From contig CM097885.1 in NCBI GenBank assembly GCA_044892525.1, forward strand, positions 15,192,001-15,256,000: DNA of 64,000 bases. The letters are read 5' to 3'. Under the pieces are notes generated by a model. It was not told the DNA's origin. It worked only from the letters and a program-made list of their open reading frames with translations, and did no database searches. A program made the position numbers and the translations under genes. This document shows positions 10,520-61,370 of this stretch, piece by piece. This stretch comes from Schmidtea polychroa (Eukaryota). The number at the start of each line of letters is the position of its first letter. The stretch's first letter is position 1.

Positions 10520-10631
10520 AGTAGTAGGATATGTCACCTCCAGGACATGTCACATCCAGGGCATCCCTACCCCCCACAAGGTCAAGGTCAAATTTTAAGG
10601 TCAAGGTTAATTTTTTAAGGTCAAGGTCAAA
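10520..10631 (+). repeat. Left TIR of element A
   Basis: Reverse complement of about 16645-16775; contains 16-bp ATGTCACxxCCAGG units and a CAAGGTCA array. Confidence 0.9.
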
Positions 10632-10834
10632 TCCATTTGCCATAAATCATCAATATCAAATGTTTTATATGGTCTTGTTGGAAATCTTTTCAGCATTGGC
10701 TTGTTTAAACTGTACGCAAGCTGACCTGATAACCAATTCTGGGTTTCTATCTTCGAATTCTGAACTCTTTTCTTTAATTTTTCGACTCCACCAAAACCTG
10801 CTTCGCCTTTTTGATTCGTCCATATCTTCTCCAT
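10628..10834 (-). pseudogene. N-terminal stub of Polinton integrase, truncated at the left TIR
   Basis: MEKIWTNQKGEAGFGG...YSLNKPMLKRFPTR...DDLWQMD is closely similar to the integrase starting at 51370; it breaks just after the first catalytic D. Confidence 0.9.
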
Positions 10835-11405: not shown

Positions 11406-11423
11406 GATCAGTCAATCCAGGTT

Positions 11424-30782: not shown

Positions 30783-31785
30783 AGTAGTATGATATGTCAC
30801 CGCCAGGCCATGTCACCGCCAGGCCATGTCACCGCCCGGCCACATATACCCCCTCCCCCCCGGGAAAATTTTTTTTTTAAATAAAAGGTCAAGGTCAAGG
30901 TCATTTATTTTTTTTTATTTAATTTTTTGTTTTAATTAAGTGGTCTGGCGGGCTCCTACTTTTTTTCATCCCAAAAATTAATGTTCCCGCCAACGGATTT
31001 TATTGGACGATACCTCATCTTAAAGCTCAGTCCAAGACCTTTCGAATGAGCTATAGGTATCTTATATATCTTTAATAGTTTTAATGTTATTAACATTTGA
31101 TGACCACCATCTTTTCAAAGTTAAATTATTATTATTTTCCAAAATATTGTTATGTGGCCTGGCGGGCTCCTACTATTTTCCATCCCAAAAATTAATGTTT
31201 CCGCCAACAGATTTTATTGGACGATAGCTCATCTTAAAGCCCAATGCAAGACCTTTCGAATGAGCCATAGAAGGTATCATCATCATTAATATTGCCAAAG
31301 TTATTAACATTTTACCAAAAATCATTTTCAAGGTCATATAATTATTAGTGGTCCAGCGGTGACCTGGTTTTCGTTTGCCCCAAAGTTATCGTTCCCATTA
31401 TCCGAATTTATTAATCGATAGCTTATTTTGAAGCTTAGTGCAAGATCTAACTATTGATATATAAATATTATTAATATAATTATTATTGGCAAAATTATTA
31501 ACGTTTTCCCGAGACCATTTTCAAGGTCATTTATTTTTCAAAATATTATTATTTCCAAGGTCATTTATTTTTTCAAGGTCATTCCCAAGGTCATTTATTT
31601 TCAAGGTCATTTATTTTTTCAAGGTCGCGTGACTCATAAAGGTCATTTTTTTTTCAAGGTCATTTTTTAATTTAATTTTTTGTTTTAATTAAGTGATCAT
31701 TAAATTTTTCAATGTCATTTATTTTTTCAAAATATTATTTTTTCAAAATATTATTTTTTCAAGGTCATTTATTATTATTATTATA

Positions 31786-31879
<94 letters not shown>

Positions 31880-34800
31880 CTCTTAGTCTATCCGACAAAA
31901 TATTCTGTCCCACTATGGGTATTGCTCACAAGGGCACTACTCACATGGGTAATTGTCACAAGGGTACTACTCACTTTCAACATTTCGTAAATTATTTTCA
32001 AATACAAGTTCAAAGTATTATTATTTATTTTAACACGCACGGGAGTTATTATTATTATTATCATATATAGTCAGAGTTTATCCGACAAGATATTCTGCCC
32101 CCCTATGTGTACTGCTTACATAGGTAATGGTTACAAGGGTACTTCTCACATTCAAAATGTCTCATAGGGCATATTATAATTACTATTAAAATTATTATTA
32201 AATTCCGACCAACTTAAATCAATGAAGGGGTAGAACAAAATATATTACGTTGCGGTATTTTAAAATTTAAATATATTTTAAAAACGTATTTTGACACTAA
32301 AGTTTACTTAATTAACAAAGACATAATTATTGCACATGCTTTGCATAAATATTATTATTATTTTTTGCATTTTTAATATTTTCATTCAAACTATTATTTC
32401 AAAGTAACACGCGCGGGTGTTATTATTATTATTATTATTATTATTGCAAATATTTCAAAGTAACACGCGCGGGTATTATTATTATTATATGTTTGCAGTA
32501 TTCTGTATTTGCCTTTACATGAAATTTTCAATAAGGAGCGATAATTTTACACATACATTCTATATACACATACCTTGTTTAACATGGGTGTATATACTTC
32601 TAGTCTATCCGACAAGATATTCTGTCCCCCTATGGGTATTGCTAGCAAGGGTACTACTCACATTCAACATGTCGCAAGGGTATATTAATTAGGGTTAGTT
32701 AATAAAACTTATGACACATACTATTTTTAATAATTCTTTAAACTATAAAAATCAAGACAAGAGAGGACAAGGCAAAGTTTATGCATTTATTATTGCCAGG
32801 CCTAATGAGCAGTGACCAAATATCTGTGCCTGAAAGACACGGTGGATATTTGTTCGCGTCCACAAGGGTCGTCTGTGCCTCCCCCAAGTGGGGTCAAAAG
32901 AACCTGGTCAATATAGCTTTCCGTACGGAACATTACGCCTAGCATGGGTAGTCAACTACCAGCACATTCGAAACGTATAATTTCAAAATACATGCGTCAT
33001 TGGCAATATAACCAAATTAATTAATGTTTTCACTAACACAAATATATATTTACAGAGGCCTCCCACTAGTTGGATTACAACCGCCCACCACGACGATCAG
33101 CTTGTAAATATATATTAATTAAGGGATAAAGAGGACCCACCCAACCCTATTATATTTAATTTACAAATTTTTCTCGCTCTTCTGCTGGTAATCTATCTCA
33201 AAATTATCATCTCCATCGGGCCATTTGGAATACATCTTGCAAATTGGATGTATTTCTTAGTTTCTGATGCGGCGTCAACTATCATTGCTAAAATTTATAT
33301 TGATTTAAAAGCAATTAACTTACATTATCTAACATTTTATCATCACAGGCTTGATAAATTAGGCAACTGTTATTTGTGGTATACTTATCAATGTCATTTC
33401 CCACCATAAAACACAGATACCTAAATATAATATATATATTTTAAAGAATTAATTCATGTCTTACATTAATAATAATATTCTTCAGGTATGACGAGTACTT
33501 TACTTAATTGATAAAACATCGGTTTTTCCCATTTTTCTTGACATTCGTTGAAAGTTTACATAATTTAAGTCTGATAATTCATGTTGAAGGACACCCACAA
33601 TCAGCTAATTCATTTAAAAAATCCCGAACATAGCAATGTTTCACCATTTTGTCTGGTTCATTTTCTTCTATAATTCATGTTTTAATAAGAAATTTCTAAA
33701 TCCAGAACATAAGTCATTTAGTGTTTCACCATTTTGTTCATCTTCTTCATAATCATATAATTCATTTTCTTCATTACTAAGTAAAATAATTAAAATATTG
33801 TAGTAAATTATTTATTTACTTACTTTATGGATACTAAAACGAAAGAAATAAAGTTATTTGAAAAGTATATTTAAATAAATTAAATTTAAATAATTTAAAT
33901 TTAGTTATTTAAAAATATTTAAACAATTTAGTTATTTAAGCATATTTAAACATTAACATTATTATATAGTATAATTTTATATAATATTATAATTTTATGT
34001 ACACTTATATATCCTTCATTTAATTTTTTAAATTCAAAAATTTATAATGAAGATTCTTTGAATTAAAAAATATTCTGTTAGTATTTCCAGGCAGAAAACA
34101 ACGAATTCAATAATTAAAATCTTAATTTTCATGTTGTTAGGGTTGTGGTCAGAAGTTAATCGCCATCTATTCGTTTGTTCTCAATTTCGCTCATTTTTGT
34201 TCAAAACATTCAGGTGAGTTGTTATCTGGAAAGTTTCTTTTAGCTCAGCTTTGTTAAAACACTCACGGTATTCTTGAAAGATGTGACACTGGAAATAAAT
34301 TAACAATGGGTGGTCATCCATACATGTTGGTGGTCTGAGCGGTCGATTTATTTAGAAATAGGTATAGTAAAAACATTTACGGTATCATTCAGTAAAATAA
34401 TATAGTATTTTTGAGTATGTTTTAGTTAATTTATAAATAACAGTATTTTGATATATCAATAAAGACCATATACTCCGAGTTTATCCGGCAAGATATTCTG
34501 TCCCCCTTTGGGTAATGGTAGCAAGGGTACTGGTCACACTCAACATGTCGCAATATTAATCATTTAGAAATTCTTAGGTAAGATAATCAGAAATTTGTGA
34601 ATATTTTAAATGTAACTTTACACTTATGTCGAGCGACTAATTTATTGGTTAACTTTTTAGACATTTAAAGCAAAAGGTAATTTATTCATCTAATGTTCGT
34701 TACAATAGTTAATAATATGAGAAAAACATGGTCTTTATTCATTGATAATTTTAAATTCTTTATCATTTGGAGTAAATTTGTTTGAGGCAAAAATAATTAA

Positions 34801-36400
34801 AGGAGTCATAATAGAAATATGGTTATCATTTAACCAAATAAGGTGCTTATTAGTTAAAAATATATATTTATATAGGGTTACAATTCTTTTCTAATTTAAT
34901 TAGATGATCATTAGACGTAATATATCTTTGCGAGAAATTTAAGATGTTTGAGTAACCAAAACATGGATATTTTGTGCGATAAATTTATGAATATTGGTTA
35001 ATTTTGTTATTTTTAGTCATTTAAAATAATATTTAGCAAAGGTAATTTAGCAAAATATCATTGAAAGATTTATCCATCCGATAATAATATTCCTTCAATA
35101 GATTTTACCTTTAATATTCAACCGATTTAATTTCTAGAAATCTAATTAAAATCATAAAATTCCTTCAATAAAGATCAATTTTCTTTAGCCGTTGTCGATT
35201 TCCAACTTTTAAGTCAATATTTCTCAAGTTTTGTCACTGATGTCCCCACAATGAATAAAATAACTTCTTAAGTAAATAATTTAAAGCAATAACCTTTGAT
35301 ATCAATCCCAATTAATTCTAAAGATTTCAAATATTTCATTGTGAAAACCAAGTAAATTGATCATTAACCCTAAACGACTTAATAAAACAGTGGATAATTA
35401 ATAAAAAAAAAACTGGTTCTAAAACATAAATCTAAATTACTGTGCAATAACATTCATCACAACCTAATAAACCTCTAAAACGATATAATTTCACAGGAAC
35501 TATTATTAATTCATAGCTAAATACTGACTATTTCCCTTTAAAATTTACCAATAAGAACATTGTCAATTTAAATAGAGATTTCAAACATTTCCACCAAATA
35601 TTTCTATCATTTTAAACACCTTAAAAAACATCTATTACCATCTTAACCAACCGACTTTAATATATCAGACCTTTAATATATCAATTCTCTTAAAATCCAT
35701 AGAAAATTCTTCAAAATATGAATTTTATTTATTTGTTACAGACATCCTTCCATTGAAATAATTTAGTATCTAAATTCATGTAGTAAGAGCCCATTAAAAA
35801 AATCAAAATTTACTAAAATCAATATTTTCTACAAATATTTCACCACATTTACCATCAAATACCTAACTAGAAATGAAATATATCGATTGATCATAATTCT
35901 TCATCGATTCAGCTAATTATATAGCAATTATAACGTGATATATCTTTCAAAATCACAAATTTCAGTATATTTTACAATAATTTTTACAAAAATTAAATAA
36001 TAATAACTTGATTATTGTAAAAACTCTAATTATTAACCTAACTGTCATTAAAAATATTATTATTTAAAAGTAAATTTAAAAACAAGTCAATAAAATATAG
36101 CAAATTATCAAGAAATTAATTAAATTTGTCTTAGAATTAACACTAAAACGTTAAATTTCAAAATATTCTTTCAATTATTCACAAAAAGGTTAGTAATAAT
36201 GTTAGTAAAATCCCGCTAACTCTAAAAATTACCAACGAATTTAATGCTAAATAATAACCAAAAATTTGCCTAAATAAAACACACCAGTACCTTTACGACC
36301 AGTACCCTTACGAGCAGTACCAATTGTGAACAGTACCCATAGAGGGAGAAAATATCTTGTCGGATAAACTCAGAGTATATATAATAAAACGAATTAACAA
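30783..36400. mobile_element. Polinton element C: one terminus plus non-coding arm, second end not found
   Basis: Starts AGTAGTATGATATGTCACCGCCAGGCC with the same poly-C, CAAGGTCA and ~190-bp subterminal units as element B. About 32490-35625 is an inverted near-copy of about 55613-58770. The right boundary is approximate. Confidence 0.8.
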
Positions 36401-40640: not shown

Positions 40641-40979
40641 GTATGTTTCATTATTTTTATGCGCATTAAAACTTGGAAATATATTCATTGTCAGTTTATC
40701 GGGAGTCAGCCATAAATTTAGTAACCGGGGTTCATAGGACAGGAATAAAAGATACTATTTGCAATATATAGAATTTTCCCCCATTTTTTTCCAATTGGGT
40801 GAATATTTTTTCTAAATATTTGAGGTGTTGCAAATTTCACATTTCCCTTTTTTCAATCACTTATAAGGTCAAGCAGTCAAAATTGCATTTTTAATAATTT
40901 TAAATCTCGATTTATTATTTTTTATTTTTATATAAGAATTACGTAATTTTTAAAATTAGCTGAAAATTAATCAATTTTA

Positions 40980-46925: not shown

Positions 46926-48381
46926 AGTAGTATGATTGGTCCCCGCCAGACCAGGTCCCCTCCAGACCACATATACCCCCTCCCCCCCCCCCCGGGAAAA
47001 AAAAATTTTTTTTTTTTAAATTTTTTGTTTTAATTAATTGGCCTGGAGGGGACACACTTTTTTTCATCCCAAAAATTAATGTTCCCACCAACGGATTTTA
47101 TTGGACGATACCTCATCTTAAAGCTCAGTCCAAGACCTTTCGATTGATCCATAGAAGGTATCATTATCATTAATATTGACAAAGTTATTAACAATTGATG
47201 ACCACCATCTTTTCAACGTTAAATTATTATTATTATTGAAAATATTATTAATTGGCCGGGCGGGGACATACTTTTTCTCATCCCAAAAATTAATGTTCCC
47301 ATTATCCGAATTTATTAATAGATAGCTTATTTTGAAGCGTAGTCTAAGACCTTTCAATTGAGCCATAGAAGGTATCATCATCATTAACATCGGCAAAGTT
47401 ATTAAAGTTTTACCGAGACCATTTTTCAAGGTCATTTATTTTTCAAAATATTATTTTCAAGGTCAAGGTCAAGGTCAAGGTCATTTATTTTTTTTCAAGG
47501 TCATTTATTTTTTCAAGGTCATTTATTTTTTCAAGGTCATTTATTTTTTCAAGGTCATTTATTTTTTCAAGGTCATTTATTTTTTCAAGGTCATATTTTA
47601 AAATTTAAATGTACAGAGTTCCCGACAACGATAATTATTCAACGATAGCTCATTTTAAAGCCCAATGCAAGACCTTTCGATTGATTCATAGAAGGTATCA
47701 TCATCATTATTATTGACAAAGTTATTAACAATTGATGACCACCATCTTTTCAACGTTAAATTATTATTATTATTCAAAATATTATTAATTGGCCGGGCGG
47801 GGACATACTTTTTCTCATCCCAAAAATTAATGTTCCCACCAACGGATTTTATTGGACGATACCTCATTTTAAAGCTCAATGCAAGACCTTTCGAATGAGC
47901 TAATGAAGGTATCATCATCATTATTATTGACAAAGTTATTAACATTTTACCAAAAATCATTTTCAAGGTCATATAATTATTAAGTGGTCTGGCGGGCCCC
48001 TACTCTTTTTCATCCCAAAAATTATTGTTCCCATTATCCGAATTTATTGGACGATACCTCATCTTAAAGCTCAGTCCAAGACCTTTCGAATGAGCCATAG
48101 AAGGTATCATCATCATTAATATTAACAAAGAGAATGACTCACCCAATGACTCACCCAACGATGTCTAATATTTTTAGAACGATGACTCATCAAGGTCAAG
48201 GTCAAATTTTTAATAAAAGGTCAAGGTCATTTATTATTTTCAAGGTCATTTATTATTTTCAAGGTCATTTATTTTTTCAAGGTCATTTATTTTTTCAAGG
48301 TCATTTATTTTTTCAAGGTCATTTAATTTTCAAGGTCATTTATTAAAATAATTATTATTTTCTAAGTTTTTAGTTTCTAAG

Positions 48382-48462
<81 letters not shown>

Positions 48463-48545
48463 CTATCCGACAAAATATTCTGACCCCCTATGGGTATTGC
48501 TAGCAAGGGTACTGGTCACATTCAACATGTCGCAAGGGTACTGTT
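46926..48545 (+). repeat. Left terminal arm of element B (imperfect long TIR with ~190-bp subterminal units and CAAGGTCA arrays)
   Basis: Repeated CATCCCAAAAATTAATGTTCCC...AAGACCTTTCGAATGAGC units; inverted counterparts at about 59560-61252. Confidence 0.85.
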
Positions 48546-48615
48546 TACAAAATTACTGGTAAAAATATTCAAGACAAAACTTTCTAAATTCTAAATATTA
48601 TTCTTTAAATATACA

Positions 48616-48974
48616 CTAAAATTTATTAACACATTCACATTCATCATCTCCACAGTTCATAACATTTTCAACAACATGATCTATACAATCCCTATATACA
48701 CACGGTTCAGTATCCGTAAATTCCTCCATAGGTTCATCAATTTCTTGAATGCTTTCCTCATCATCTTGAGTGTTTTCTTCATCTGTTTCATCAAATTCCG
48801 AATCTTCACTCTCTGCTACCCAGTCTATATTTAATGCGTTTGTAACAGATAATATATCCGCCATTTTCACACCAGATATTTCTGCTAATTTTTCCAATAA
48901 AAAGTTTATTATAAATTCTAAATATTAAATAATTCGATAATTAACTAATCATATTAACCTTTTTCTGTAGTCAT
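48616..48974 (-). CDS. Spliced acidic, Cys-tailed hypothetical protein
   Basis: MTTEK|EFIINFLLEKLAEISGVK after removing the 41-nt GT-AG intron at 48958-48918; acidic linker; CVYRDCIDH...CGDDECEC. Confidence 0.75.
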
Positions 48975-49070
48975 TATTAGTATTTTAAAACTATAGTATA
49001 TATTTGTTTATAGAAAATATAGAATATAAGCGAAAACAAATATGACTAAATACATTTATTAAATACAACA

Positions 49071-49490
49071 TTAAAATAACTGTGAAAGTCTAGCAGACAT
49101 AATTTTCCAAATTGGAGAATACACATCATTATTATCAACTTTATATCCTTGGATTGTAATTGTTATATACCAATTTTCGTTTTCTTTGAAACTGATTTCA
49201 TCAAAGGAATCATAAAATTTTGCATATCGGTTGTTGAAAAATGCATTTTGATTGCATGATAGATTCGTATTCAACCTTTTGAAAACATCATCTATGGTTT
49301 TAATATCTAACATTGAAAGCGTGCCGGTTAAGAATTGAAATTGGGTAGGAATTAGCTTGATCGGTGACACCAATTTCATATTGATTTCTTCTTTTAAAAA
49401 ATACATTTTGTAGTTGTGGAACATTTGAACAGGTTGTACAAGTTCTGGAACTACTTTTGGTTTTTCAGTGCTTGAAATTTTCTTGGTCAT
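49071..49490 (-). CDS. Conserved hypothetical Polinton protein (139 aa)
   Basis: Intact ORF with a homologue in element A (13222-13825). Confidence 0.7.
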   Translation of the reverse strand: MTKKISSTEKPKVVPELVQPVQMFHNYKMYFLKEEINMKLVSPIKLIPTQFQFLTGTLSMLDIKTIDDVFKRLNTNLSCNQNAFFNNRYAKFYDSFDEISFKENENWYITITIQGYKVDNNDVYSPIWKIMSARLSQLF

Positions 49491-49598
49491 TGTGAATTAT
49501 GATTAAAATGAAATGGTATAGGGTTTTTATACCTATGACTATTGTTTATCATCCAATCAGATTGCAGTATGTTTTTGTTTTAATTGAATGATAAATAA

Positions 49599-50063
49599 TT
49601 AATTAAGTGATAATAAAAAATCTAAAAATTCTTTTCCTTCAATTATTGATTTAATTTCAGATATGATATTATCAACTATACTTTTGTATTCAATATTTTT
49701 TATTCCAAGAATTACTATCTTACCGCTAGCGAATATATTTACACACATAGGGTTATATTTTATATATCTCAAAGCTGGAAATAATTCTGGTTCATAAAAG
49801 CATGGTATTAATTTAGCTAATTTATTTAAATTACAAGAAAAACCTATATCGGAAGTTACGGTTATCGATTGTATTTCTAAATCATAAACATTATATTCAC
49901 TAGCTTTGCTTATTTCCTTACACCCCATAATTCTACATTTACCAGTTTTGAAATATATTATTGGATATTTATTACTTCTATTGATAAGTTGTTGTGGTTT
50001 CCCTATTGGAAATACCATTTTTGATACATCAGTTTTTGCCCTGTAATTTATATTTGAAAGCAT
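49599..50063 (-). CDS. TATA-binding protein (TBP)-like protein carried by element B
   Basis: FYEPELFPALRY...VNIFASGKIVILGIK and IIYFKTGKCRIMGCK; intact 154 aa; head-to-head with the ATPase as in element A. Confidence 0.85.
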   Translation of the reverse strand: MLSNINYRAKTDVSKMVFPIGKPQQLINRSNKYPIIYFKTGKCRIMGCKEISKASEYNVYDLEIQSITVTSDIGFSCNLNKLAKLIPCFYEPELFPALRYIKYNPMCVNIFASGKIVILGIKNIEYKSIVDNIISEIKSIIEGKEFLDFLLSLN

Positions 50064-50167
50064 TTTAATGAAATAATTTTAAAAACTTTGATATATATAG
50101 GTATTTAAAAACAGAGTTCATTTAAATTATCAATATAAACAATAATTATATAGTTTAAATTTAAAAA

Positions 50168-50806
50168 ATGGAATTACGAAATGATGCAGTATACCAAATC
50201 GTTGGTCCAAGTGGTAGCGGGAAAACTTTATTTGTTTGTAAATTACTAAAATCAAATTTGTTTAAAACAAAATTCAACAATATTTATTGGCATAGGGGCG
50301 CCGACGAAGAACACGGATTGACGCAATCAAGTTTCTGTCAGTTGAAAAACATGAAAATAGTAAAGGGCTTTGATAAAAACTGGTCAAGTCGTTTGAAGAA
50401 AGATGATGTCATCATTATCGATGATTTGTATCAAGAAGCCAATAAAGAAAAGGACTTTAATAATTTATTCACAAAAATCAGCAGACATGTTGGTGTAACA
50501 GTTATTTTCATAACACAAAATCTATTTCATCAAGGTGGTGCACATCGAACACGTAATTTAAATGTACAATATTTAGTTATTTTCAAGAATCCTAGAGATG
50601 CAACTGTCATTGATTTTCTTGGACGACAAGCATACCCTAATAACCGTAATTTTCTTATCAGTGCATTTCAAGATGCCACGAAAATACCGCATGGGTATAT
50701 ATTTCTCGATTTCACACAACAATGCCCTGATGATATACGCGTAAAAACAGATATTTTCAACCCAAAAGGTGCCATGGTATATAAACAAAGTTCAAAACAA
50801 AGTTGA
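50168..50806 (+). CDS. A32/FtsK-HerA family DNA packaging ATPase
   Basis: GPSGSGKT, IIIDD, SRH...ITQNLF, RTRNLN.QY...FKNPRD and HGYIFLD. Confidence 0.93.
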   Translation: MELRNDAVYQIVGPSGSGKTLFVCKLLKSNLFKTKFNNIYWHRGADEEHGLTQSSFCQLKNMKIVKGFDKNWSSRLKKDDVIIIDDLYQEANKEKDFNNLFTKISRHVGVTVIFITQNLFHQGGAHRTRNLNVQYLVIFKNPRDATVIDFLGRQAYPNNRNFLISAFQDATKIPHGYIFLDFTQQCPDDIRVKTDIFNPKGAMVYKQSSKQS

Positions 50807-50819
50807 AAACATATAAATC

Positions 50820-51308
50820 ATGTTTTCAAAAACAAGGATATCGGGTAAAAAACAACCAAAAGTTCCACCAACAACTAGTTATACTCCATCTAAAGATCTT
50901 ATTACAGAAAATTTTCCTGCAATGAATCTTATTTCGAAAAATCCTAAACCAAAAAGTAAAACCACTAAGAAAGTAAAAGTTGTTAAAAATCATCGGAGTT
51001 TCCCGTTTTTCAATACATTGTTAAAGGCACCAAGTATGAAAAGAAACAGTATTTTGCAATCTTTTCCAAATTATGTTGTCGATGATTTACTCGATATTAT
51101 ACTTAAAGTAGTCAAAGGCAAGATTAAAATCAGTAAATCTAAAAAGCAATTATTGAGTAAACATAGGAAACCTTTGCTATCATTAGTAAATAATAAAAAT
51201 CGTCAACAAATGAGAAAAATTATATATAAACAACAAGGGGGATTTATCGGTGCATTGATACCTTTAGCAATATCATTATTAGGTGGAATAATAGGAAGTC
51301 GATCATAA
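50820..51308 (+). CDS. Basic virion core protein, pX-like C-terminus
   Basis: Lys-rich; ends QQGGFIGALIPLAISLLGG, resembling adenovirus pX after a GG protease site. Confidence 0.7.
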   Translation: MFSKTRISGKKQPKVPPTTSYTPSKDLITENFPAMNLISKNPKPKSKTTKKVKVVKNHRSFPFFNTLLKAPSMKRNSILQSFPNYVVDDLLDIILKVVKGKIKISKSKKQLLSKHRKPLLSLVNNKNRQQMRKIIYKQQGGFIGALIPLAISLLGGIIGSRS

Positions 51309-51369
51309 ACAATGGGTGCTAATCCTTCATTACCAGACATTAAATTTAATATTAAATCTTCTTGTTGTA

Positions 51370-52425
51370 ATGGAGAAGATTTGGACGAACCCGGAAGACG
51401 AAGCCGGTTTTGGTGGAGTGGCAAAATTAAGGAAAAGAGTTCCGAATTCGAAAAAGGAAACTCAGAAGTGGTTATCAGACCAGCTTGCGTACAGTTTGAA
51501 CAAACCAATGCAGAAACGATTCCCAACAAGAGCATATAAAACATATGGAATAAATGATTTATGGCAAATGGATTTGATGGAGATGATACCCTATTCGAAA
51601 ATTAACAATGGGTATAAATATATTTTAACATGTATTGATGTATTCAGTCGGTTTGCCCGAGCAATACCCGTCAAGGCAAAATCTGCAGATGAAATGTCCA
51701 AAGCTGTTAATCATTTATTTAAAGATGGACATCCTAAAAACTTGCAAACTGATTTAGGTATTAATATTATTATTTTTATTATTATTATTATTATTTTAGG
51801 TAAAGAATTCTAAAACAGTAAAGTCAAGCAAATCCTCATTAAATTGAAAATAAACCATTACTCAGTACATTCTCAATACAAAGCTGCTCATGTTGAAAGA
51901 TTTAACCGAACTTTGAGAGATAGATTAAAGAAATTATTCGTGCATCAAGGTAATAAAAAATGGGTATTGGTTTTACCAAAAATAATAACCAGTTATAATC
52001 ACTCATCACATCAAGGACTGAATGGATTAAGGCCGATTGATATCACGTCAAAAACAATCTATTCTAAAAAACCTGAAAAAATTACAAAACCGAAATATAA
52101 AGTAGGTGACCATGTTAGAATTAGTAAAATTAGTGCATCACCATTTATTAAAAATTTCGATACAAATTGGAGTGATGAAGTCTTTGTAATTTCAAAAATA
52201 AATACTAAACAGAATCCTGTAATGTATGTCATCAAAGACGATGATAACAATATTGTACAAGGAAAATTTTATGAACAAGAATTACAAGTTATTCCTCCCC
52301 CAAAAGTATTTAGAATTCAGAAGATATTGAAAACTAAAAATAAAGGCAAGGATAAACAATACTATGTCAAATGGCATGGTTATCAAAACCCATCATGGAT
52401 ATCAGAAAAGGATCTAGTAAAGTGA
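51370..52425 (+). pseudogene. Retroviral-type (rve) integrase with C-terminal chromodomain; 42-nt intron-like insert and one premature stop
   Basis: WQMDL, IDVFSR, LQTDLG|KEF, VERFNRTL (DDE); chromodomain IQKIL...YYVKWHGY..PSWI; GT-AG at 51758-51799; TAA at 51811-51813. Confidence 0.9.
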
Positions 52426-53438
52426 ATTTTTATACTATTTTACCAAGCAATAGTTGCCCGCTTATTCATCCAGATAATCAAGCCAGTAAATTCATGGTCA
52501 ATCTCCAGAATCCGATTTCTTTAAATGGTGACTGGGAAGTTGCACTGCAAGATTTTACATTCGTGTACAATACATTCCCATTTTATAGTCAATGTAAGAT
52601 TGATTTCAAAAGGAATGCTATGAAAACATGTAGTGGTATCTTTATTATCAGTAATTATGATAAAACATATCATATTCCGAATCAAATATTAGATCAGCAT
52701 TGCACTATGTTTTACAAGGATGGATTAAATATCAGTTGTGATTTTAAACCATTTACAATAACATTCGAATATATTGAAGATGCCAGACGAATGGGCTGCA
52801 ATAAGTTGAAAAATGAAGTTATGGAAACAGAATATTTATTACGCTTTGATCTATTTGAAGCAAACAGTGTAATGAGAGAAGAAATCAAAATTTCAGTGTC
52901 GTATAATAATGAAGTTGAAGAATCATTCACCTTCGCTGACGAATTATATATTGATAAACTTGATGTGTTACTTAAATATTTAAAGTATAATTGTTCACAC
53001 ATATTTAAAAGTTTGGATATTGTGAAAGATTTGTTATTTACCTTCAGTTTGAATGATGACATTTGCGAAGTTACATTTGATAAAAATTTGACAAATACAC
53101 TTGGATTAGAGAAGCAGCAATATCGGGAAAAATCGGCTGGTATACGTAAACCAAGAATACTTGAACATCATCAACAAATGTTCATATATACTAATATTAT
53201 TGAGCCTATAATAGTTGGTGATTCCAGTGTTCCTCTATTGAAATCGGTGTGGATTGGAAAATATGAACATGATGAAGTTGTCAATATAAATATAGATAAT
53301 CCCATGTATTTACCAATTTCAAGCTCATGTATAAACAATATAGAAATAAATATTCGTGACGATAGTGGAAAACTTATAAACTTCCCAAAAGACTCAAAAA
53401 CTCATTTGACACTACATTTTCGTAAAGTAGATGGCTAA
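52371..53438 (+). CDS. Minor capsid protein (penton, single jelly-roll)
   Basis: FYTILPSNS...PDN.ASKF.V.L..PI.L.G.WEVAL at the N-terminus and IYTNIIEP.IVGD...PLL...Y.P...I.I.IRDD.G...LHFR at the C-terminus, typical of Maverick penton. The true start is probably near 52422. Confidence 0.85.
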   Translation: MAWLSKPIMDIRKGSSKVNFYTILPSNSCPLIHPDNQASKFMVNLQNPISLNGDWEVALQDFTFVYNTFPFYSQCKIDFKRNAMKTCSGIFIISNYDKTYHIPNQILDQHCTMFYKDGLNISCDFKPFTITFEYIEDARRMGCNKLKNEVMETEYLLRFDLFEANSVMREEIKISVSYNNEVEESFTFADELYIDKLDVLLKYLKYNCSHIFKSLDIVKDLLFTFSLNDDICEVTFDKNLTNTLGLEKQQYREKSAGIRKPRILEHHQQMFIYTNIIEPIIVGDSSVPLLKSVWIGKYEHDEVVNINIDNPMYLPISSSCINNIEINIRDDSGKLINFPKDSKTHLTLHFRKVDG

Positions 53439-53793
53439 TTCCGATATTATTAGTATGTATAGTGATAGCCAATCTGGCGGTGAATTACCATATTTTATTG
53501 GTAAACAGTACGGATCAGGTTGGTTAAAAACAATAGGGAGATTTGCACTTCCCATTCTTAAACGTATTGGTAGTTTTGGCATGAAAACTGCAAAAGATGT
53601 GATTATGAATGAACAGAAAATATTACCATCCCTAAAAACAAATGCTTTAGCGGAGTTAGGGAAGGTTCTACCTGGAGTTGCTGGTATGTTTCAAAAAGAT
53701 ACACCTCCAGTCCCAGCTCCAAAACGTAAAGGGCATGGAATATCGCGTATAAACAAACGAATGAAAGGACATGGAACTATATTTGCAAAATGA
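53431..53793 (+). CDS. Small virion protein with QxGG/QxGxG sites and amphipathic helix (pVI/'cupiennin'-like)
   Basis: QSGG...FIGKQYGSGWLKTIGRFALPILKRIG; located between penton and MCP. Confidence 0.7.
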   Translation: MANSDIISMYSDSQSGGELPYFIGKQYGSGWLKTIGRFALPILKRIGSFGMKTAKDVIMNEQKILPSLKTNALAELGKVLPGVAGMFQKDTPPVPAPKRKGHGISRINKRMKGHGTIFAK

Positions 53794-55013
53794 TTTGTGG
53801 TAAATCCGAATTATGTATATTTGATAGACCATCGCCCCAGGCAGTAATAGAATTTGGTGCCTTTGAGGAAGTTTTTCCTATGAATTCAATTACTGATAGT
53901 AGAAATGATATCGAGTTTTATATTAATGGTTCGCAAACTGAATATTTAGATTTGAACGATACTTTATTGACTGTTCAGATCAAGGTTGTAGATAAAGATA
54001 GAAAGGTTTTGGATGCCAATGCGGATGTATTACCAAACAATTTCATGTTTCATACTCTGTTTAAAGATGCAGTGTTGGGATTTAATAATATCAAGATTGA
54101 GGGTGGAAATAATACATTCATTCACAAGGCTTTGATAGAAACTATTTTAAATTACAATTCAGATACTAAAAATACCTGTCTTACACCTATGGGTTATGCA
54201 GCAGCAGATGATGAAAGAAAAAAGTGGGTTAAAGGCTCAAAAGTATTCACTATGTGCTCATCATTACAACTTGATTTTATGGATCAACCGAAATATTTAC
54301 TACCGGGAGTTAATATACATATTAGACTGAAAAGATCTGATTCTGCATTGTCTCTTACTAGTGCAACTGGTGCACCAATATGTCAATTAGTTGATGCAAA
54401 ATTATTGGTGAGAAGAGTTCGAGTAGACCCGTCAGTATTAGCTGGTCATCAATTGGGGCTTAATTCAAAACATGCAATTTATCCTTTAAAAACAAAGGAA
54501 ATTGTACAATTTGCTATTGCTAAAGGTGCTTCATCATTCTATAAAGAACAAATATTTGGTGACAGAAGAATGCCTAATTTTATTCTGGTAACATTTCAAA
54601 GTGAAACGCAATATAATGGATCGTATACTGCTTCCAGCTCAATTTTCAAAAATTTTGGTGTTACTTCATTGACTTTATCGAAAAATACTGATTATAGAGA
54701 AACATATACTCAAGATTTCGAGAATGATAATTACTGTGCGACATATATGCAGAGTATTGTTAGAAATCTGGGTTATTTAGATAAAAACTTGAATTGCGGA
54801 ATAACTCTTGAAGAATTTAAAAGCAAATACCCATTTTTCACATTTGTTCTAGCTCCCGATTTTGATTTAAATCAGAGTCAATTACCACAAAACGGGAATT
54901 TACGACTGGATATAAAGTTTGCAAAGGCCATTACTGAACCAGTACATGTTATAATATATGGAGTATTTGAAAATGAAGTTCAAATTACTGCAAATAGAAC
55001 CGTGCTAGTATAA
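53790..55013 (+). CDS. Major capsid protein (double jelly-roll, hexon-like)
   Basis: KSELCIF N-terminal motif, IEF.I.G...EYLDL, QPKYLLPGV.I.IRL.R and G.LRLDIKF; intact 407 aa. Confidence 0.88.
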   Translation: MICGKSELCIFDRPSPQAVIEFGAFEEVFPMNSITDSRNDIEFYINGSQTEYLDLNDTLLTVQIKVVDKDRKVLDANADVLPNNFMFHTLFKDAVLGFNNIKIEGGNNTFIHKALIETILNYNSDTKNTCLTPMGYAAADDERKKWVKGSKVFTMCSSLQLDFMDQPKYLLPGVNIHIRLKRSDSALSLTSATGAPICQLVDAKLLVRRVRVDPSVLAGHQLGLNSKHAIYPLKTKEIVQFAIAKGASSFYKEQIFGDRRMPNFILVTFQSETQYNGSYTASSSIFKNFGVTSLTLSKNTDYRETYTQDFENDNYCATYMQSIVRNLGYLDKNLNCGITLEEFKSKYPFFTFVLAPDFDLNQSQLPQNGNLRLDIKFAKAITEPVHVIIYGVFENEVQITANRTVLV

Positions 55014-55040
55014 ATGTATACAGAAATATAGAAAGTTGTC

Positions 55041-55424
55041 ATGGAGTAAGTTTTTCAATACTGTTTAATTTATTAAAGTAGTTCTGTTCAGGTCAATAGA
55101 ATTGGAAAACAGATATTGGGAAATGAATTTGTAGGAGTTTTTCCTCTCGATAAAATCCCATATTTGAGCAATAATCAAGCCATAATCGTCAATACTCAAT
55201 CGTCTCATCTTGGTGGAGAACATTGGATTGCTATATATGTGAAACCTAGTAATATATTCGTGTTCGATCCTATGGGTTTCTATTACCCTGCTTTGTTGGT
55301 ATCAAAACTACAAACAATGGGGAAACCTATTGTATATAATAAAACAATGTTTCAAAATCCCTTGACACAAACATGCGGTCAACATTGTTTAGCTTGGTTG
55401 TTGTATAAAAAATTTGATGATTAA
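55041..55424 (+). CDS. Adenain/Ulp1-like maturation cysteine protease (probable 33-nt intron at 55046-55078)
   Basis: FVGVFPLD, IVNT, GEHW, FDPMG and Q...TCGQHC catalytic residues; splicing gives the start MDSSVQVNRIG. Confidence 0.88.
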
Positions 55425-55449
55425 TAAATGTATTTTGTATCCTTTGTTG

Positions 55450-55494
<45 letters not shown>

Positions 55495-55561
55495 TTTTAT
55501 TAATATTATTATTATTTTATTATTATTATTATTATTAATATTATTAATATTATTATTATTA

Positions 55562-55609
<48 letters not shown>

Positions 55610-58600
55610 GATTTTTAAGGGGGTGTTTAAAATGGTAGAAATATTTGGTGAGGAATCGGTTATGGTGGAAATGTTTGAAATCTCTATTTAAATCGACAAT
55701 GTTCTTATTGGTAAAATTTTAAAGGGAAATAGTCAGTATTTAGCTATGAATTAATAATAGTTCCTGTGAAATTATATCGTTTTAGAGGTTTATTAGGTTG
55801 TGATGAATGTCATTGCACAGTAATTTAGATTTATGTTTTAGAACCAGTTTTTTATTAATTATCCACTGTTTTATTAAGTCTTTTAGGGTTAATGATCAAT
55901 TTACTTGGTTTTCACAATGAAATATTTGAAATCTTTAGAATTAATTGGGATTGATATCAAAGGTTATTGCTTTAAATTATTTTACTTAAGAAGTTATTTT
56001 ATTCATTGTGGGGACATCAGTGACAAAACTTGAGAAATATTGACTTAAAAGTTGGAAATCGACAACGGCTAAAGAAAATTGATCTTTATTGAAGGAATTT
56101 TATGATTTTAATTAGAAATTAAATCGGTTGAATATCAGTTAATCTATTGAAGGAATATTGTTATCGGATGGATAAGTGATATTTTGCCAAATTACCTTTG
56201 CTAAATATTATTTTAAATCACTAAAAATGAGAAAATTAAGCACTATTCATAAATTTATCGCACAAAATATCCATGTTTTGGTTACTCAAACATCTTAAAT
56301 TTCTCGCAAAGATATATTACGTCTAATGATCATCTAATTAAATTAGAAAAGAATTGTTACTTTATATTTTTAACTAATAAGCACCTTATTTGGTTAAATG
56401 ATAACCATATTTCTATTATGACTCCTTTAAATATTTTTGCCTCAAACAAATTTACTCCAAATGATAAAGAATTTAAAATTATCAATGAATAAAGACCATG
56501 TTTTTCTCATATTATTAACTATTGTAACGAACATTAGATGAATAAATTAATTTTTGCTTTAAATGACTACAAAGTTAACCAATAAATTAGTCGCTCGACA
56601 TAAGTGTAAAGTTACATTTAAAATATTCACAAATTTCTGATTATCTTACCTAAGAATTTCTAAATGATTAATATTGCGACATGTTGAGTGTGACCAGTAC
56701 CCTTGCTACCATTACCCAAAGGGGGACAGAATATCTTGCCGGATAAACTCGGAGTATATGGTCTTTATTGATATATCAAAATACTGTTATTTATAAATTA
56801 ACTAAAAATACTCAAAAATACTATATTATTTTACTGAATGATACCTTAAATGTTTTTAATATACATATTTCTAAAATAAATCAACAGTTCAAACCAACAA
56901 CATGTATGGATGACCACCCATTGTTAATTTATTTCCAGTGTCACGTCCCTCAAAAATACCGTGAGTGTTTTAACAAAACTGAGCTAAAAGAAACTTTCCA
57001 GATAACAACTCACCTGAATGTTTTGAACAAAAATGAGCAAAATTGAGAACAAACGATTAGATGGCGATTAACTTCTGGCCACATCCCTAACAACATGAAA
57101 ATTAAGATTTTAATTATTGAATTCGTTGTTTTCTGCCTGGAAATACTAACAGAATATTTTTTAATTCAAAGAATCTTCATTATAAATTTTTGAATTTAAA
57201 AAATTAAATGAAGGATATATTAAATTTACAATACATAATATTATATAAAATTATACTGTATTTATTAATAAATTTAGAATACATAAAATTATAATATTAT
57301 AATATTTTATAAAGTTATACTATATAATAATGTTTAAATATGCTTAAATAACTAAATTGTTTAAATATTTTTAAATAACTAAATTTAAATTATTTAAATA
57401 TAATTCTGATATAACGTTATTTCTTTCGTTTTAGTATCCATAAAGTAAGTAAATAAAGAATTTACTACAATATTTTAATTATTTTACTTAGTAATGAAGA
57501 AAATGAATTATATAATTATGAAGAAGATGAACAAAATGGTGAAACACTAAATGACTTATGTTCTGGATTTAGAGATTTCTTATTAAAACATGAATTATAG
57601 AAGAAAATGAACCAGACAAAATGGTGAAACATTGCTATGTTCGGGATTTCTTAAATGAATTAGCTGATTGTAGGTGTCCTTCAACATGAATTATCAGACT
57701 TAAATTATGTAAACTTTCAACGAATGTCAAGAAAAATGGGAAAACCGATGTTTTAGCAATTAGATATTGTAAAGTACTACCTGAAGAATATTATTATTAA
57801 TGTAAGACATGAATTAATTCTTTAAAATAAATATATTATATTTAGGTATCTGTGTTTTATGGTGGGAAATGTCATTGAAAAAGTATACCACAAATAACAG
57901 TTGCCTAATAGTCAGGTAGAATTTAATTTCTGACGATAAAATGATAAATAACATCTGTAAGTTAATGGCTTTTAAATTTTAGCAATGATAGTTGACACCG
58001 CATCAGAAACTAAGAAATACGTCCAATTTGCAAGATGTATTCCAAATGGCCTGATGGAGATGATAATTTTGAGATAGATTACCAGCAGAAGAGCGAGAAA
58101 AATTTGTAAATTAAATATAATAGGGTTGGGTGGGTCCTCTTTATCCCTTAATTAATATATATTTACAAGCTGATCGTCGTGGTAGGCGGTTGTAATCCAA
58201 CTAGTGGGAGGCCTCTGTAAATATATATTTGTGTTAGTGAAAACATTAATTAATTTGGTTATATTGCCAATGACGCATGTATTTTGAAATTATACGTTTC
58301 GAATGTGCTGGTAGTTGACTACCCATGCTAGGCGTAATGTTCCGTACGGAAAGCTATAATGCCCAGGTTCTTTTGACCCCACTTGGGGGAGGCACAGACG
58401 ACCCTTGTGGACGCGAACAAATATCCACCGTGTCTTTCAGGCACAGATATTTGGTCACTGCTCATTAGACCTGGCAATACTAAATGCATAAACTTTGCCT
58501 TGTCCTCTCTTGTCTTGATTTTTATCGTTTAAATAGTATGTGTGATAGGTTTTATTTACTAACCATAATTAATATACCCTTGCGATATGTTGAGTGTGAG

Positions 58601-58838
58601 TAGTACCTTTGTGAGCAATACCCATAGGGGGACAGAATATTTTGTCGGATAGACTATGAGTATATACACCCATGTTAAACAAGGTATGTGTATATAGAAT
58701 GTGTGTGTAAAATTATCGCTCCTTATTGACAACTTCCTGTAAAGGCAAACACAGAATACTGCAAACATAATAATACTCTACCCCATAACTTAGTATGTAA
58801 AAATTATTTAAGGTTTTTTCACTAATAATAATAATAAT

Positions 58839-58914
<76 letters not shown>

Positions 58915-58916
<2 letters not shown>

Positions 58917-59420
58917 GTTTAATGGGTTGTATATGTGTGTAAAAAATATTTGAGGTTTTCACGAATATTGATAATAATAATGGTTTATGAGTGTTTTTAT
59001 GTTTTTGACTAATATTTGCAATAATAATAATGGTTAATGGGTTGTGTGTGTGTGTGTGTAGAAAATATTTTAGGTTTTCACTAATATTGATAATAATAAT
59101 TGTTAATGGGTTGTGTGAGTGTAAATAATATTTTAGGTTTTTGACTAATATTTGCAATAATAATAATAATAATAATAAGTTTAATGAGTTGTATGTGTGT
59201 GTGTAAAAATATTTTAGGTTTTTAATATTGATAATAATAATAATAATGGTTTATGGGTTGTGTGAGTAAACCATATTTTAGATTTTTCACTAATAATGAT
59301 AATAATAATGGTTAATGAGTTGTGCATGTGTGTGTGTAGAAAATATTTTAGGTTTTTAATATTGATAATAATAATAATGGTTGAGGGGTTGTGTGTGTAA
59401 ACCATATTTTAGATTTTTCA
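58915..59420. repeat. About 60-bp minisatellite with (TG)n and (TAA)n inside the right arm of element B
   Basis: Repeated TTAATGGGTTGTGTGTG...AAATATTTTAGGTTTT...AATAATAAT; flanked by long (TAA)n tracts. Confidence 0.85.
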
Positions 59421-59425
59421 TTAAC

Positions 59426-59490
<65 letters not shown>

Positions 59491-60134
59491 TTAAAACTTT
59501 GAAAATAACATCTTTCGCGCGGATGTTAATATCATTCCCAATAATAATGATGATAATAATATTTATATATCAGTAGATAGATCTCGCACTGGGCCTTAAA
59601 ATGAGCTATAGATCAATAAAATCTGTTGGTGGGAACATTAAGTTTTGAGCAAACGAAAACCAGGAGCCCGCCAGACCACTTAATAATATTTTTGAAAATA
59701 ATAATAATTTATGAGTCATCGTATGAGTCATCGAATGAGTCATCGTTCTAAAAATACATGATAATAATAATAATAATAATAATAATATTCTTGGGAGTTG
59801 TAATAATAATTCTTTGAAAATATCTTAGTCATTATTAATAATACTAATAATACCCTAGCGAGTTGTTGATTGTGAGCAGTACCCTGGTGATCAGTACCCT
59901 TGTGAGCAGTTCCCATAGGGGGACAGAATATTTTGTCGGATAGACTCGGTGTATATATGATAATAATAATAATAATAATAATAATAAAACTTAGAAAATA
60001 ATAATATGTAATCAACGATTTAAACAAAATTATATTATTACGTATTCTATAATTAAAACAGAAGAATTATATAATCAATGATTTAAACAAATTATATAAT
60101 CATCGATAATTAAAACAAAATTATTAATTCTAAA

Positions 60135-60510
60135 AATACTAGGCATCGTTCTAAAAATATGACGTAATCATTCTAAAAATAATAGGCATCGTTCTAAAAT
60201 ATTAGACATCGTTCTAAAATAAGAGGCATCGTTCTAAAAGTATGATGTAATCGTTCTAAAAATATTAGGCATCGTTCTAAAAATATTTGGCATCGTTCTA
60301 AAAATATTAGGCATCGTTCTAAAAGTATGACGTAATCATTCTAAAAATAATAGACATCGTTCTAAAAATATTTAGCATCGTTCTAAAAATATTAGGCATC
60401 GTTCTAAAAGTATGACGTAATCATTCTAAAAATATTAGGCATCATTCTAAAAATATTAGGCATCGTTCTAAAAGTATGACGTAATCATTCTAAAAATATT
60501 AGGCATCGTT
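60135..60510. repeat. About 20-22 bp tandem array containing ATGACGTAAT motifs
   Basis: Alternating AAAATATTAGGCATCGTTCT and AAAAGTATGACGTAATCATTCT units. Confidence 0.9.
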
Positions 60511-61370
60511 GGGTGAGTCATTGGGTGACTCATTCTCTTTGTTAATAATAATGATGATGATACCTTCTATCGCTCATTCGAAAGGTCTTGGACTGAGCTT
60601 TAAGATGAGGTATCTGTTAATAAATTCGGATAATGGGAACATTAATTTTTGGGATGAAAAAAAGTGTGAGCCCGCCAGATCACTTAATAATATTTTGGAA
60701 AATAATAATAATTTAACTTTGAAAAGATGGTGGTCATCAATTGTTAATAACATTAAAACTATTAAAGATATATAAGATACCTATAGCTCATTCGAAAGGT
60801 CTTGGACTGAGCTTTAAGATGAGGTATCGGTCAATAAAATCTGTTAACGAGAACATTAATTTTTGGGATGAAAAAAAGTAGGGGCCCTCTGGATCACTTA
60901 ATAATATTTTGACAAATAATAATAATTTAACTTTGAAAAGATGGTGGTCATCAATTGTTAATAACATTAAAACTATTAAAGATATATAAGATACCTATAG
61001 CTCATTCGAAAGGTCTTGGACTGAGCTTTAAGATGAGGTATCGGTCAATAAAATCTGTTAACGAGAACATTAACTTTTGGGATGAAAAAAAGTGTGAGCC
61101 CGCCAGATCACTTAATTAAAACAAAAAATTAAATTAAAAAAAAATGACCTTGACCTTGACCTTTTATTTAAAAAAAAATTTTTCCCCGGGGGGGGGAGGG
61201 GGTATATGTGATGCGGGGAGCTCCTGATCTGGATGGCCCACATCCTACTACTATTGATGTTTTCATTATTATCAAAAGTAACTGAAATAAACGTTTATGC
61301 ACACGTTTTATTAAATAACATTAACAAACGGTTTCCAACATGAACATAAAACTAAAAACAAGTATTTAGA

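What the first reader, a model, noticed from the sequence alone, without database searches (positions are those of the whole stretch)
47426..48342. Dense arrays of the nuclear-receptor site TCAAGGTCA in all Polinton ends
Seen: about ten copies in 47426-47593 (18-bp period TTTATTTTTTCAAGGTCA plus overlapping 6-bp tandem runs) and many more at 48189-48342, 10577-10630, 16645-16720, 30886-30903, 31520-31770 and 61144-61162. They always point inward from the terminus and are kept even though the A and B arms are otherwise dissimilar. Established: TCAAGGTCA is the monomeric site of NR5A/FTZ-F1/SF-1 and ERR-type receptors. Inference: the termini are enhancers or replication-origin auxiliaries that tie activation to a host nuclear receptor, as adenovirus ITRs use NFI/Oct-1, possibly in germline or stem cells.
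Basis: partly seen in the sequence, partly recalled or inferred. Interest (0 to 1): 0.7.

Follow-up and report, generated by a model that had tools for sequence, protein, structure and literature searches.

The report
Hormone-receptor motif arrays in Polinton ends
The ends of a very abundant virus-like jumping element in an animal genome carry repeated, same-direction copies of a classic nuclear-receptor DNA word, plus other host transcription-factor words, so they probably work as host-controlled switches, although no binding has been shown.

Summary
The arrays are real: 36 exact TCAAGGTCA against 0.44 expected, all in five Polinton/Maverick ends, all pointing inward, none in the other 59 kb. 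But they are dense in only two ends (21, 8, 3, 2, 2 sites). The A and B ends are homologous, so the sites probably descend from one ancestral word amplified by slippage; the inward polarity is not independent evidence. Distance from the terminus varies (54-501 bp), arguing against an NFI/Oct-1-like origin role. For function: beyond the first 45 nt it is the only non-A/T word shared by A and B ends. It was amplified in different repeat units. None of 40 listed variable sites among genomic copies hits a core (45 hidden). AP-1 and CRE-like words are amplified alongside. Against: 5 of 9 unit slots are degenerate, a broad motif panel shows no excess, and the one distant relative with an end lacks the array. 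Best reading (0.45): a host-receptor enhancer, NR5A-like; DR0 binders or neutral drift remain open. Host taxon and germline link are untested. The scan noted a similar array in another genome (e1-7498819, unchecked).

The parts
46926..61252 (+). Polinton/Maverick element B2, bounded by AGTAGT...ACTACT ends and a 6-bp target-site duplication ATTGAT; no polymerase match inside it; its two ends are only about 78% alike over 450 bp
   Evidence: flanks; self-BLAST; gene map
46926..47000 (+). B2 left terminus: AGTAGTA, two 16-bp repeats, C-run; lacks the terminal-proximal AAGGTCA run of the other four ends
47014..48130 (+). ~214-bp repeat units of the B2 left arm, in part within a ~540-750-bp duplication; units hold an imperfect palindrome of uneven stability and end in the slot where the motif or a degenerate form sits
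   Evidence: (family D6)
47426..47593 (+). Array I: 11 exact TCAAGGTCA (6-bp DR0 run plus 18-bp period)
47963..47971 (+). Single TCAAGGTCA in the unit-end slot
48133..48189 (+). Three AP-1-type TGACTCA words (two in a 12-bp repeat), the last abutting array II
48190..48338 (+). Array II: 9 exact TCAAGGTCA (two DR0 pairs, then 17-19-bp period)
48446..48545 (+). ~85-100-bp block after an ATT microsatellite, present in every long arm; function unknown
49602..50078 (-). TBP-like gene of B2 (Pfam PF00352, E 3e-16); its start lies about 1.7 kb inward of array II
50165..50803 (+). A32-like packaging ATPase (Pfam PF04665, E 2e-7)
51295..52422 (+). Retroviral-type integrase with chromodomain, in two open frames; relatives split at the same place
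53790..55010 (+). Double jelly-roll major capsid protein (model pLDDT 86.7; best matches iridovirus, PBCV-1, mavirus capsids, E 2e-18)
55077..55421 (+). Adenain-type protease (Pfam PF00770, E 1e-6)
59710..60532 (-). B2 right arm, at the place where the left arm has array II: 21-bp array with four ATGACGTAAT (CRE/ATF-like) and five TGASTCA in 12-bp repeats, no receptor array
61143..61252 (-). B2 right terminus with three AAGGTCA in a 6-bp run (2 exact 9-mers)
30783..35631 (+). Element B1 left end and long non-coding arm (32350-35631 is 90% complementary to 55608-58905); 8 exact sites at 30889-31767 plus CCAAGGTCA x2 and TCAAGGTCG; partner end not found
10520..10632 (+). Element A left end: AAGGTCA doublets at 20-bp period (2 exact 9-mers); target-site duplication ATCTAA
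16645..16775 (-). Element A right end: doublets at 21-bp period (3 exact 9-mers, plus CCAAGGTCA and an AAGGCCA doublet)

Best explanation
The arms of this Polinton family are repeat-built regulatory regions. One ancestral extended half-site (TCAAGGTCA) just inside the terminus was carried along when the arm duplicated in ~214-bp and larger units. It was then multiplied locally by slippage, as 6-bp DR0 runs, 18-bp units (B) and 20/21-bp doublets (A). Shown: the anatomy, homology of the ends, polarity, and co-amplified AP-1 and CRE-like words. Inferred: a host nuclear receptor of the monomer-binding kind (NR5A/FTZ-F1 first, ERR next) binds the clustered sites together with bZIP factors and opens the arm. 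The arm then acts as a distance-independent enhancer of the element's early transcription, with arrays kept because copies that respond better transpose more. Site number acts as a dial rather than a requirement, which fits 2 to 21 sites per end.
For: 36 of 36 exact sites lie in ends. Beyond the first 45 nt, the only 8-mers shared by both A ends and all three B ends are six overlapping words of TCAAGGTCAAGGT and two A/T runs; the same word family is the only set of 7-mers with two or more copies in all five ends. Different repeat units carry it in A and B. 22 of 34 half-sites not preceded by another hexamer still have the 5' TCA extension. Among genomic copies, 0 of the 40 listed variable positions fall in the 177 core bases of 1,315 covered (P about 0.003; G/C bases only 0 of 80 against 20 of 326, P 0.018). 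5 of 15 repeat-unit families in the arms hold a perfect AGGTCA, TGASTCA or TGACGTMA, about 0.2 expected (triad chosen after seeing the data). TGASTCA: 9 of 14 window sites are in arms; ATGACGTAAT: 4 of 4. Nr5a2 binds TCAAGGTCA and TCAAGGCCA equally while Esrrb disfavours the latter; the CC form occurs at the A right end. Precedent: baculovirus hr repeats with CRE/TRE words are enhancers (PMC13513840).
Against: No binding, chromatin or expression data. The sites are not independent: the ends are homologous and the arms are full of tandem repeats. 5 of 9 unit-end slots read TCAAAGTTA or TCAACGTTA. One end has only 2 overlapping sites in a 5.6-kb arm. Inside the arrays, core versus spacer variation is not significant (0 of 168 against 3 of 149, P 0.10), only 40 of 85 variable sites were shown, and short contigs map ambiguously on repeats. 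With a 36-motif panel, 4 of 12 short units hit against 2.4 expected, and 93% of shuffled 214-mers hit something. Of 6 one-mismatch cores in the arrays, 3 break the recalled NR5A consensus. The one related element with a visible terminus (L305, capsid 45% identical) has tandem repeats but 0 exact sites and no one-mismatch site in its end. In B2 the arrays lie downstream of the nearest genes, 1.7-1.8 kb from their starts.
Confidence: 0.45

Rival explanations
1. Neutral minisatellite. A slippage-prone arm amplified a word that happens to match a receptor site; strand-displacement copying and conversion between ends keep the units alike. A receptor may bind, but without consequence for the element.
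For: Single ancestral origin is enough to explain count and polarity. 10 of 15 repeat-unit families lack the triad motifs and the broad panel shows no excess. 5 of 9 unit slots are degenerate, and site number runs from 2 to 21. L305 lacks the array.
Against: Even one such site is uncommon in a unit of this composition (0.2% for the 9-mer, 3% for any monomer-type site). It is the only G/C-containing word kept between A and B, it was amplified in several unit designs, and cores show no listed variation.
Confidence: 0.27
2. The repeats are a cis signal read by an element-encoded protein, such as a packaging signal like the adenovirus A-repeats, or an integrase or core-protein loading site.
For: Strong left-right asymmetry in B2 (21 against 2 sites). 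The element encodes a packaging ATPase and capsid. Adenovirus uses redundant AT-rich repeats near one end, and host COUP-TF binds them without being needed (PMC5033970, passages).
Against: Element A, which lacks capsid genes, has sites at both ends. Spacing is 6, 18, 19, 20 or 21 bp with no fixed helical phase, while adenovirus A-repeats need precise spacing and a place within 600 bp of the end; array II lies 1,265-1,405 bp in. No Pfam DNA-binding domain other than TBP and chromo was found in the element proteins scanned; small ORFs remain unassigned.
Confidence: 0.12
3. The sites recruit a repressive host receptor (NR6A/GCNF-like or another DR0 binder) that keeps copies quiet in most cells, a latency switch rather than an enhancer.
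For: 13 DR0 elements, all in ends, present in all five ends. Nr6a1 binds DR0 or the extended half-site and acts as a repressor (PMC10909835, passages).
Against: Most B sites are single half-sites at 18-bp period, not DR0, and AP-1/CRE-like words, usually activating (recalled), are amplified beside them. Whether the host has an NR6A gene is unknown.
Confidence: 0.1
4. Replication-origin auxiliary, as NFI and Oct-1 sites are for adenovirus: a bound receptor helps load the protein-primed polymerase.
For: Four of five ends have a run within 54-101 bp of the terminus. Baculovirus hrs serve as both origin and enhancer.
Against: Distance to the terminus is not conserved (54, 57, 88, 101, 501 bp), and the 46926 end lacks the proximal run yet belongs to an insertion with a clean target-site duplication. 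That adenovirus auxiliary sites need fixed spacing is recalled, not read here.
Confidence: 0.06

Closest known systems
Polintons/Mavericks of animals (PMC8097293, section 7 and passages)
   Same: (AGT)2 ends, 6-bp target-site duplication, integrase, ATPase, double jelly-roll capsid, protease, polymerase-like ORFs.
   Different: Arms reach about 5 kb against 46-1,447 bp for intact vertebrate elements; B2's two ends are only 78% alike; receptor-site arrays in the ends were not found in the searches run.
Baculovirus homologous regions (hrs) (PMC13513840, passages)
   Same: AT-rich repeat units with an imperfect palindrome and interspersed CRE/TRE words for host bZIP factors.
   Different: hrs are dispersed in a circular genome, need viral IE1 and are proven enhancers and origins; here the repeats are terminal, the dominant word is a nuclear-receptor site and nothing is tested. 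No sequence relationship is claimed.
Adenovirus left end: ITR sites and packaging A-repeats (PMC5033970, passages; NFI/Oct-1 origin role recalled)
   Same: Linear protein-primed-type genome with repeated host-factor words near an end; a nuclear receptor (COUP-TF) binds adenovirus A-repeats.
   Different: Spacing to the end and between repeats is fixed in adenovirus and variable here; the word is different.
Nr5a2/Esrrb motifs spread by SINE B1 (10.1101/2022.05.17.492379, passages)
   Same: The same 9-mer, with a DR0 overlap, dispersed genome-wide by a mobile element.
   Different: One composite site per retrotransposon in mouse, with binding shown; here up to 21 tandem sites per end of a DNA virus-like element, binding not shown.

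Membership tests
Polinton/Maverick | (AGT)2...(ACT)2 end motifs | tested here: met
   AGTAGTA at 10520, 16775, 30783, 46926, 61252; motif as in PMC8097293
Polinton/Maverick | 6-bp target-site duplication | tested here: met
   ATCTAA for A, ATTGAT for B2 (about 0.0008 each by chance); not testable for B1, whose partner end was not found
Polinton/Maverick | Terminal inverted repeats | tested here: met
   A: 115 bp at 85%; B2: about 450 bp at 78%, so imperfect
Polinton/Maverick | Retroviral-type integrase | tested here: met
   rve E 6e-8 and chromodomain in B2; only the N-terminal part in A
Polinton/Maverick | Packaging ATPase, protease and double jelly-roll capsid | tested here: met
   for B2; A has the ATPase only
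Polinton/Maverick | Protein-primed DNA polymerase B | tested here: inconclusive
   Polymerase-like pieces in A (14652-15968): no Pfam hit, Atlas look-alike cluster with DNA_pol_B_2 on 10% of members, homologues in 4 related loci at the expected place. No match inside B2, so these copies look non-autonomous.
NR5A/ERR response element | Extended half-site TCAAGGTCA | tested here: met
   36 exact sites; motif as given
NR5A/ERR response element | Bound by the receptor, with an effect on transcription | not testable with these tools
   needs EMSA, chromatin or reporter data
NR5A/ERR response element | Host encodes the receptor | not testable with these tools
   No genome held; host taxon unresolved
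DR0 element (NR6A1/GCNF, RAR-type) | AGGTCAAGGTCA | tested here: met
   13 in ends, 0 outside; binding not testable
Adenovirus-type auxiliary origin | Conserved distance of the host-factor site from the terminus (recalled) | tested here: not met
   54, 57, 88, 101 and 501 bp
Baculovirus hr-like enhancer/origin | Repeat units with a conserved palindrome plus CRE/TRE words | tested here: inconclusive
   Palindrome folding z of -3.2, -2.4, -1.9, -0.5 and +0.2 in 5 units; CRE/TRE-like words present; activity untested

The most novel reading that the evidence does not exclude
Polinton arms are evolvable, swappable enhancer modules. Slippage amplifies whichever host transcription-factor word helps (nuclear-receptor, AP-1 or ATF/CRE), the two ends of one element can carry different modules, and recombinant ends still integrate. 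A very high-copy family would then scatter clustered NR5A-type sites across the host genome, tie a virus-like element's activation to a host developmental or germline receptor, and possibly soak up that receptor or rewire nearby genes; the same device may have arisen in Polinton-like elements of other animals.
Probability: 0.2. Interest if true: 0.75.

Novelty: new variant of a known kind. Interest (0 to 1): 0.45.

Why it matters
What switches on animal Polintons, and in which cells, is open. A tandem array of a defined receptor word gives a direct handle: one candidate factor family, one 18-bp probe, one knock-down. If it holds, it links a virus-like endogenous element to host nuclear-receptor control and means that a very abundant repeat spreads clustered receptor sites through the genome. 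If it fails, it is a clear example of how repeat slippage fakes motif enrichment.

Tried and rejected
Genome-wide survey of ends: no genome is held. Cross-host test: 70 metagenome loci with related capsids hold no array (2 of 70 have a single exact site), but no terminus was recognised in the long loci inspected, so this is no test. Of 3 loci from genome contigs only L305 shows an end. Viral collection: capsid and ATPase queries found no relative. An end-plus-motif pattern gave 2 unrelated hits. No capsid relative in the phage collection or by sequence in the PDB. Expression: no RNA holder listed among 23 runs, which says nothing either way. Host taxon: a proteasome pseudogene gave 47-59% matches, named ones all insects; a torsin exon matched an unnamed record at 88%; unresolved. 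Planarian papers (PMC8532177, PMC10558129, PMC8363021, PMC8673669; passages only) were read on a guess from base composition and are not used as evidence; if the host were a triclad, PMC8363021 reports ERR missing in S. mediterranea, which would favour NR5. Terminal hairpins: none of 4 termini folded beyond shuffles (z -0.4 to -1.6). The capsid remnant upstream of B2 was not seen to continue on the right flank. A search for the recalled SV40/ERR precedent found no paper, so it is not cited. Supplements were not read.

Full report
1. Observation. TCAAGGTCA occurs 36 times in the 64-kb window; 100 dinucleotide shuffles give 0.44 on average and at most 3. The stretch named holds 21: 11 at 47426-47593, 1 at 47963 and 9 at 48190-48338. 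All 36 fall in 4,883 bp that I delimited as element ends and none in the other 59,117 bp; all read inward. Contigs from 4 of the 23 listed runs were laid on 46900-48350. They come from four studies and each covers 28 of 30 bins, including both arrays; the first 136 letters were skipped as repeats. 39,606, 7,788, 1,006 and 305 pieces were laid, so the arm is real and very high-copy, though no piece spans it. Density is uneven: 2, 3, 8, 21 and 2 exact sites in the five ends. And the A and B ends are related: all 10 pairs of first-120-nt sequences align far above shuffles.

2. What the elements are. Five AGTAGTA ends were found. A (10520-16775) and B2 (46926-61252) each have a perfect 6-bp target-site duplication; B1 (from 30783) has no partner end in the window. 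B2 encodes a TBP-like protein, an A32-like ATPase, an integrase with chromodomain and an adenain-type protease. It also encodes a protein whose model (pLDDT 86.7) matches double jelly-roll capsids (E 2e-18). No polymerase match lies inside B2; A has polymerase-like pieces, ATPase and TBP-like genes but no capsid genes. End motif and duplication match vertebrate Mavericks (PMC8097293, section 7 and passages). These are non-autonomous-looking Polinton/Maverick copies in an AT-rich animal genome (torsin exon). The host taxon was not resolved.

3. Anatomy of an arm. Read inward: AGTAGTA, 16-bp repeats, a C-run, then in four of five ends a run of AAGGTCA hexamers. In B this is followed by ~214-bp units, further arrays, an ATT microsatellite and a conserved ~85-100-bp block. 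The motif sits in a recurring slot at the end of the 214-bp unit; 4 of 9 such slots are perfect and 5 read TCAAAGTTA or TCAACGTTA. Array I and the B1 array begin at a perfect slot. The simplest history (inference) is one ancestral site, copied with the unit and expanded by slippage into 6-bp runs, 18-bp units in B and 20/21-bp doublets in A. So 36 sites are not 36 events, and uniform inward polarity follows from descent.

4. Evidence that the word is more than a passenger. (a) Beyond the first 45 nt, the 8-mers shared by both A ends and all three B ends are six overlapping words of the motif run and two A/T runs. (b) It was amplified in different unit designs. (c) 22 of 34 half-sites that do not follow another hexamer still carry the 5' TCA. 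(d) Of the 40 best-supported variable positions among genomic copies, none lies in the 177 core bases of 1,315 covered (P about 0.003; G/C bases only P 0.018). (e) Other canonical words are amplified in the same arms: 9 of 14 TGASTCA and 4 of 4 ATGACGTAAT. The right arm of B2 carries a CRE-like 21-bp array where the left arm carries array II. 5 of 15 repeat-unit families hold a perfect receptor, AP-1 or CRE core against about 0.2 expected, but that triad was chosen after seeing the data. (f) One such 9-mer arises in 0.2% of simulated units, any monomer-type receptor site in 3%.

5. Evidence against. Test (d) saw only 40 of 85 sites, short contigs map ambiguously on repeats, and inside the arrays core versus spacer is not significant (0 of 168 against 3 of 149, P 0.10). 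With a recalled 36-motif panel, 4 of 12 short units hit against 2.4 expected. Three of 6 one-mismatch cores break the recalled NR5A consensus. One end makes do with 2 overlapping sites. The only relative whose terminus I could see (L305, capsid 45% identical) has 63-bp and 138-bp tandem repeats but no exact site and no excess of near-sites, so the array is not universal in the clade (n = 1). The 70 metagenome loci gave no recognisable ends. There are no binding, chromatin or expression data.

6. Mechanism. Most likely (0.45) the arrays are homotypic clusters for a host monomer-binding nuclear receptor that, with bZIP factors, make the arm an enhancer of the element's early genes. In B2 the divergent TBP-like/ATPase starts lie 1.7-1.8 kb further in. 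TCAAGGTCA is the Esrrb motif and Nr5a2 binds it as well as TCAAGGCCA, whereas Esrrb binds the latter about 70-fold worse (10.1101/2022.05.17.492379, passages). The AAGGCCA doublet in A and the CCAAGGTCA variants lean weakly to NR5A. The 13 DR0 elements keep NR6A1/GCNF-type repressors in play (PMC10909835, passages; 0.10). Neutral slippage gets 0.27. A signal for an element protein, like adenovirus packaging repeats (PMC5033970, passages), gets 0.12; spacing here is not phased. The origin-auxiliary reading gets 0.06: the first site lies 54 to 501 bp from the end, and the end without a proximal run belongs to a clean insertion. The germline or stem-cell link is speculation.

7. Relation to what is known. 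The elements meet the Polinton/Maverick tests except that the polymerase is unconfirmed. The arm works, if at all, like baculovirus hrs, whose enhancer strength tracks CRE/TRE and palindrome counts (PMC13513840, passages), and like SINE B1, which spreads the same 9-mer in mouse. It is not a member of either. Searches pairing Polinton/Maverick with nuclear receptor, transcription-factor binding or the 9-mer listed no paper that describes such arrays, judged from titles and abstract starts. The library lacks most subscription journals, and repeat databases were not searched. The scan's own notes hold a similar, unchecked report of eight same-direction receptor words in the end repeats of a capsid-only element in another genome (e1-7498819); it is a lead, not support. 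Notes on this genome describe gene-less palindromic Polinton offshoots and the TBP-like gene; I confirmed only the TBP match and a long non-coding mirror arm.

8. Verdict. Host-factor sites in viral and transposon ends are a known kind; a slippage-amplified nuclear-receptor array in Polinton arms looks like a new variant and is cheap to test. Interest 0.45.

Noticed in passing
window 46926-47455 and 60686-61252: The two ends of element B2 are only about 78% alike and differ within the first 40 nt, yet share a perfect target-site duplication; it looks like a recombinant of two subfamilies that still integrated.
   Followed up: partly
window 32350-35631 and 55608-58905: A 3.3-kb stretch without ORFs over 70 codons is 90% complementary between the B1 left arm and the B2 right part, giving arms near 5 kb; fits the gene-less palindromic offshoots noted elsewhere in this genome.
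   Followed up: partly
window 31867, 32054, 32591, 34482, 36387(-), 48446, 56745(-), 58657(-), 59964(-): A ~75-100-bp block starting with a TATATA-like run recurs nine times in the long arms, often after an ATT microsatellite; could be a promoter or a nested small repeat.
   Followed up: no
window 30995-31075, 48045-48120, 60770-60840: The 214-bp unit holds an imperfect palindrome of about 50 bp; folding is beyond shuffles in 2 or 3 of 5 units tested.
   Followed up: partly
window 51295-52422: The integrase is in two open frames separated by a short AT-rich stretch, and metagenome relatives split at the same place, which suggests a conserved small intron rather than decay.
   Followed up: partly
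window 10520-16775: Element A has the polymerase-like gene downstream of the TBP-like gene on the same strand and breaks off in the integrase right at the left end, a gene order unlike B2 and loci L002 and L021.
   Followed up: no
window 44500-46909 and 61736-62238: Decayed remains of an older Polinton (ATPase to capsid on the left, polymerase-like on the right) flank B2, which appears to have inserted into it; a 170-bp palindrome lies at 61370-61542.
   Followed up: partly
L305 11408-12067: A distant relative, found as a eukaryote-like contig inside a bacterial genome bin, has an AGTAGT end with 63-bp and 138-bp tandem repeats containing other motif-like words (GTAAACA, TGTGGT, GCGCGCAT; labels recalled).
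   Followed up: partly
window 40057-40712 and 17951-18490: Host torsin exons (Pfam PF06309, E 1e-22) and an apparently intronless, decayed proteasome alpha-6 copy.
   Followed up: partly
window 30844-30865, 46971-46996, 61185-61205: A C-run of variable length follows the 16-bp terminal repeats in all B ends; the other strand is G-rich and could form a quadruplex.
   Followed up: no
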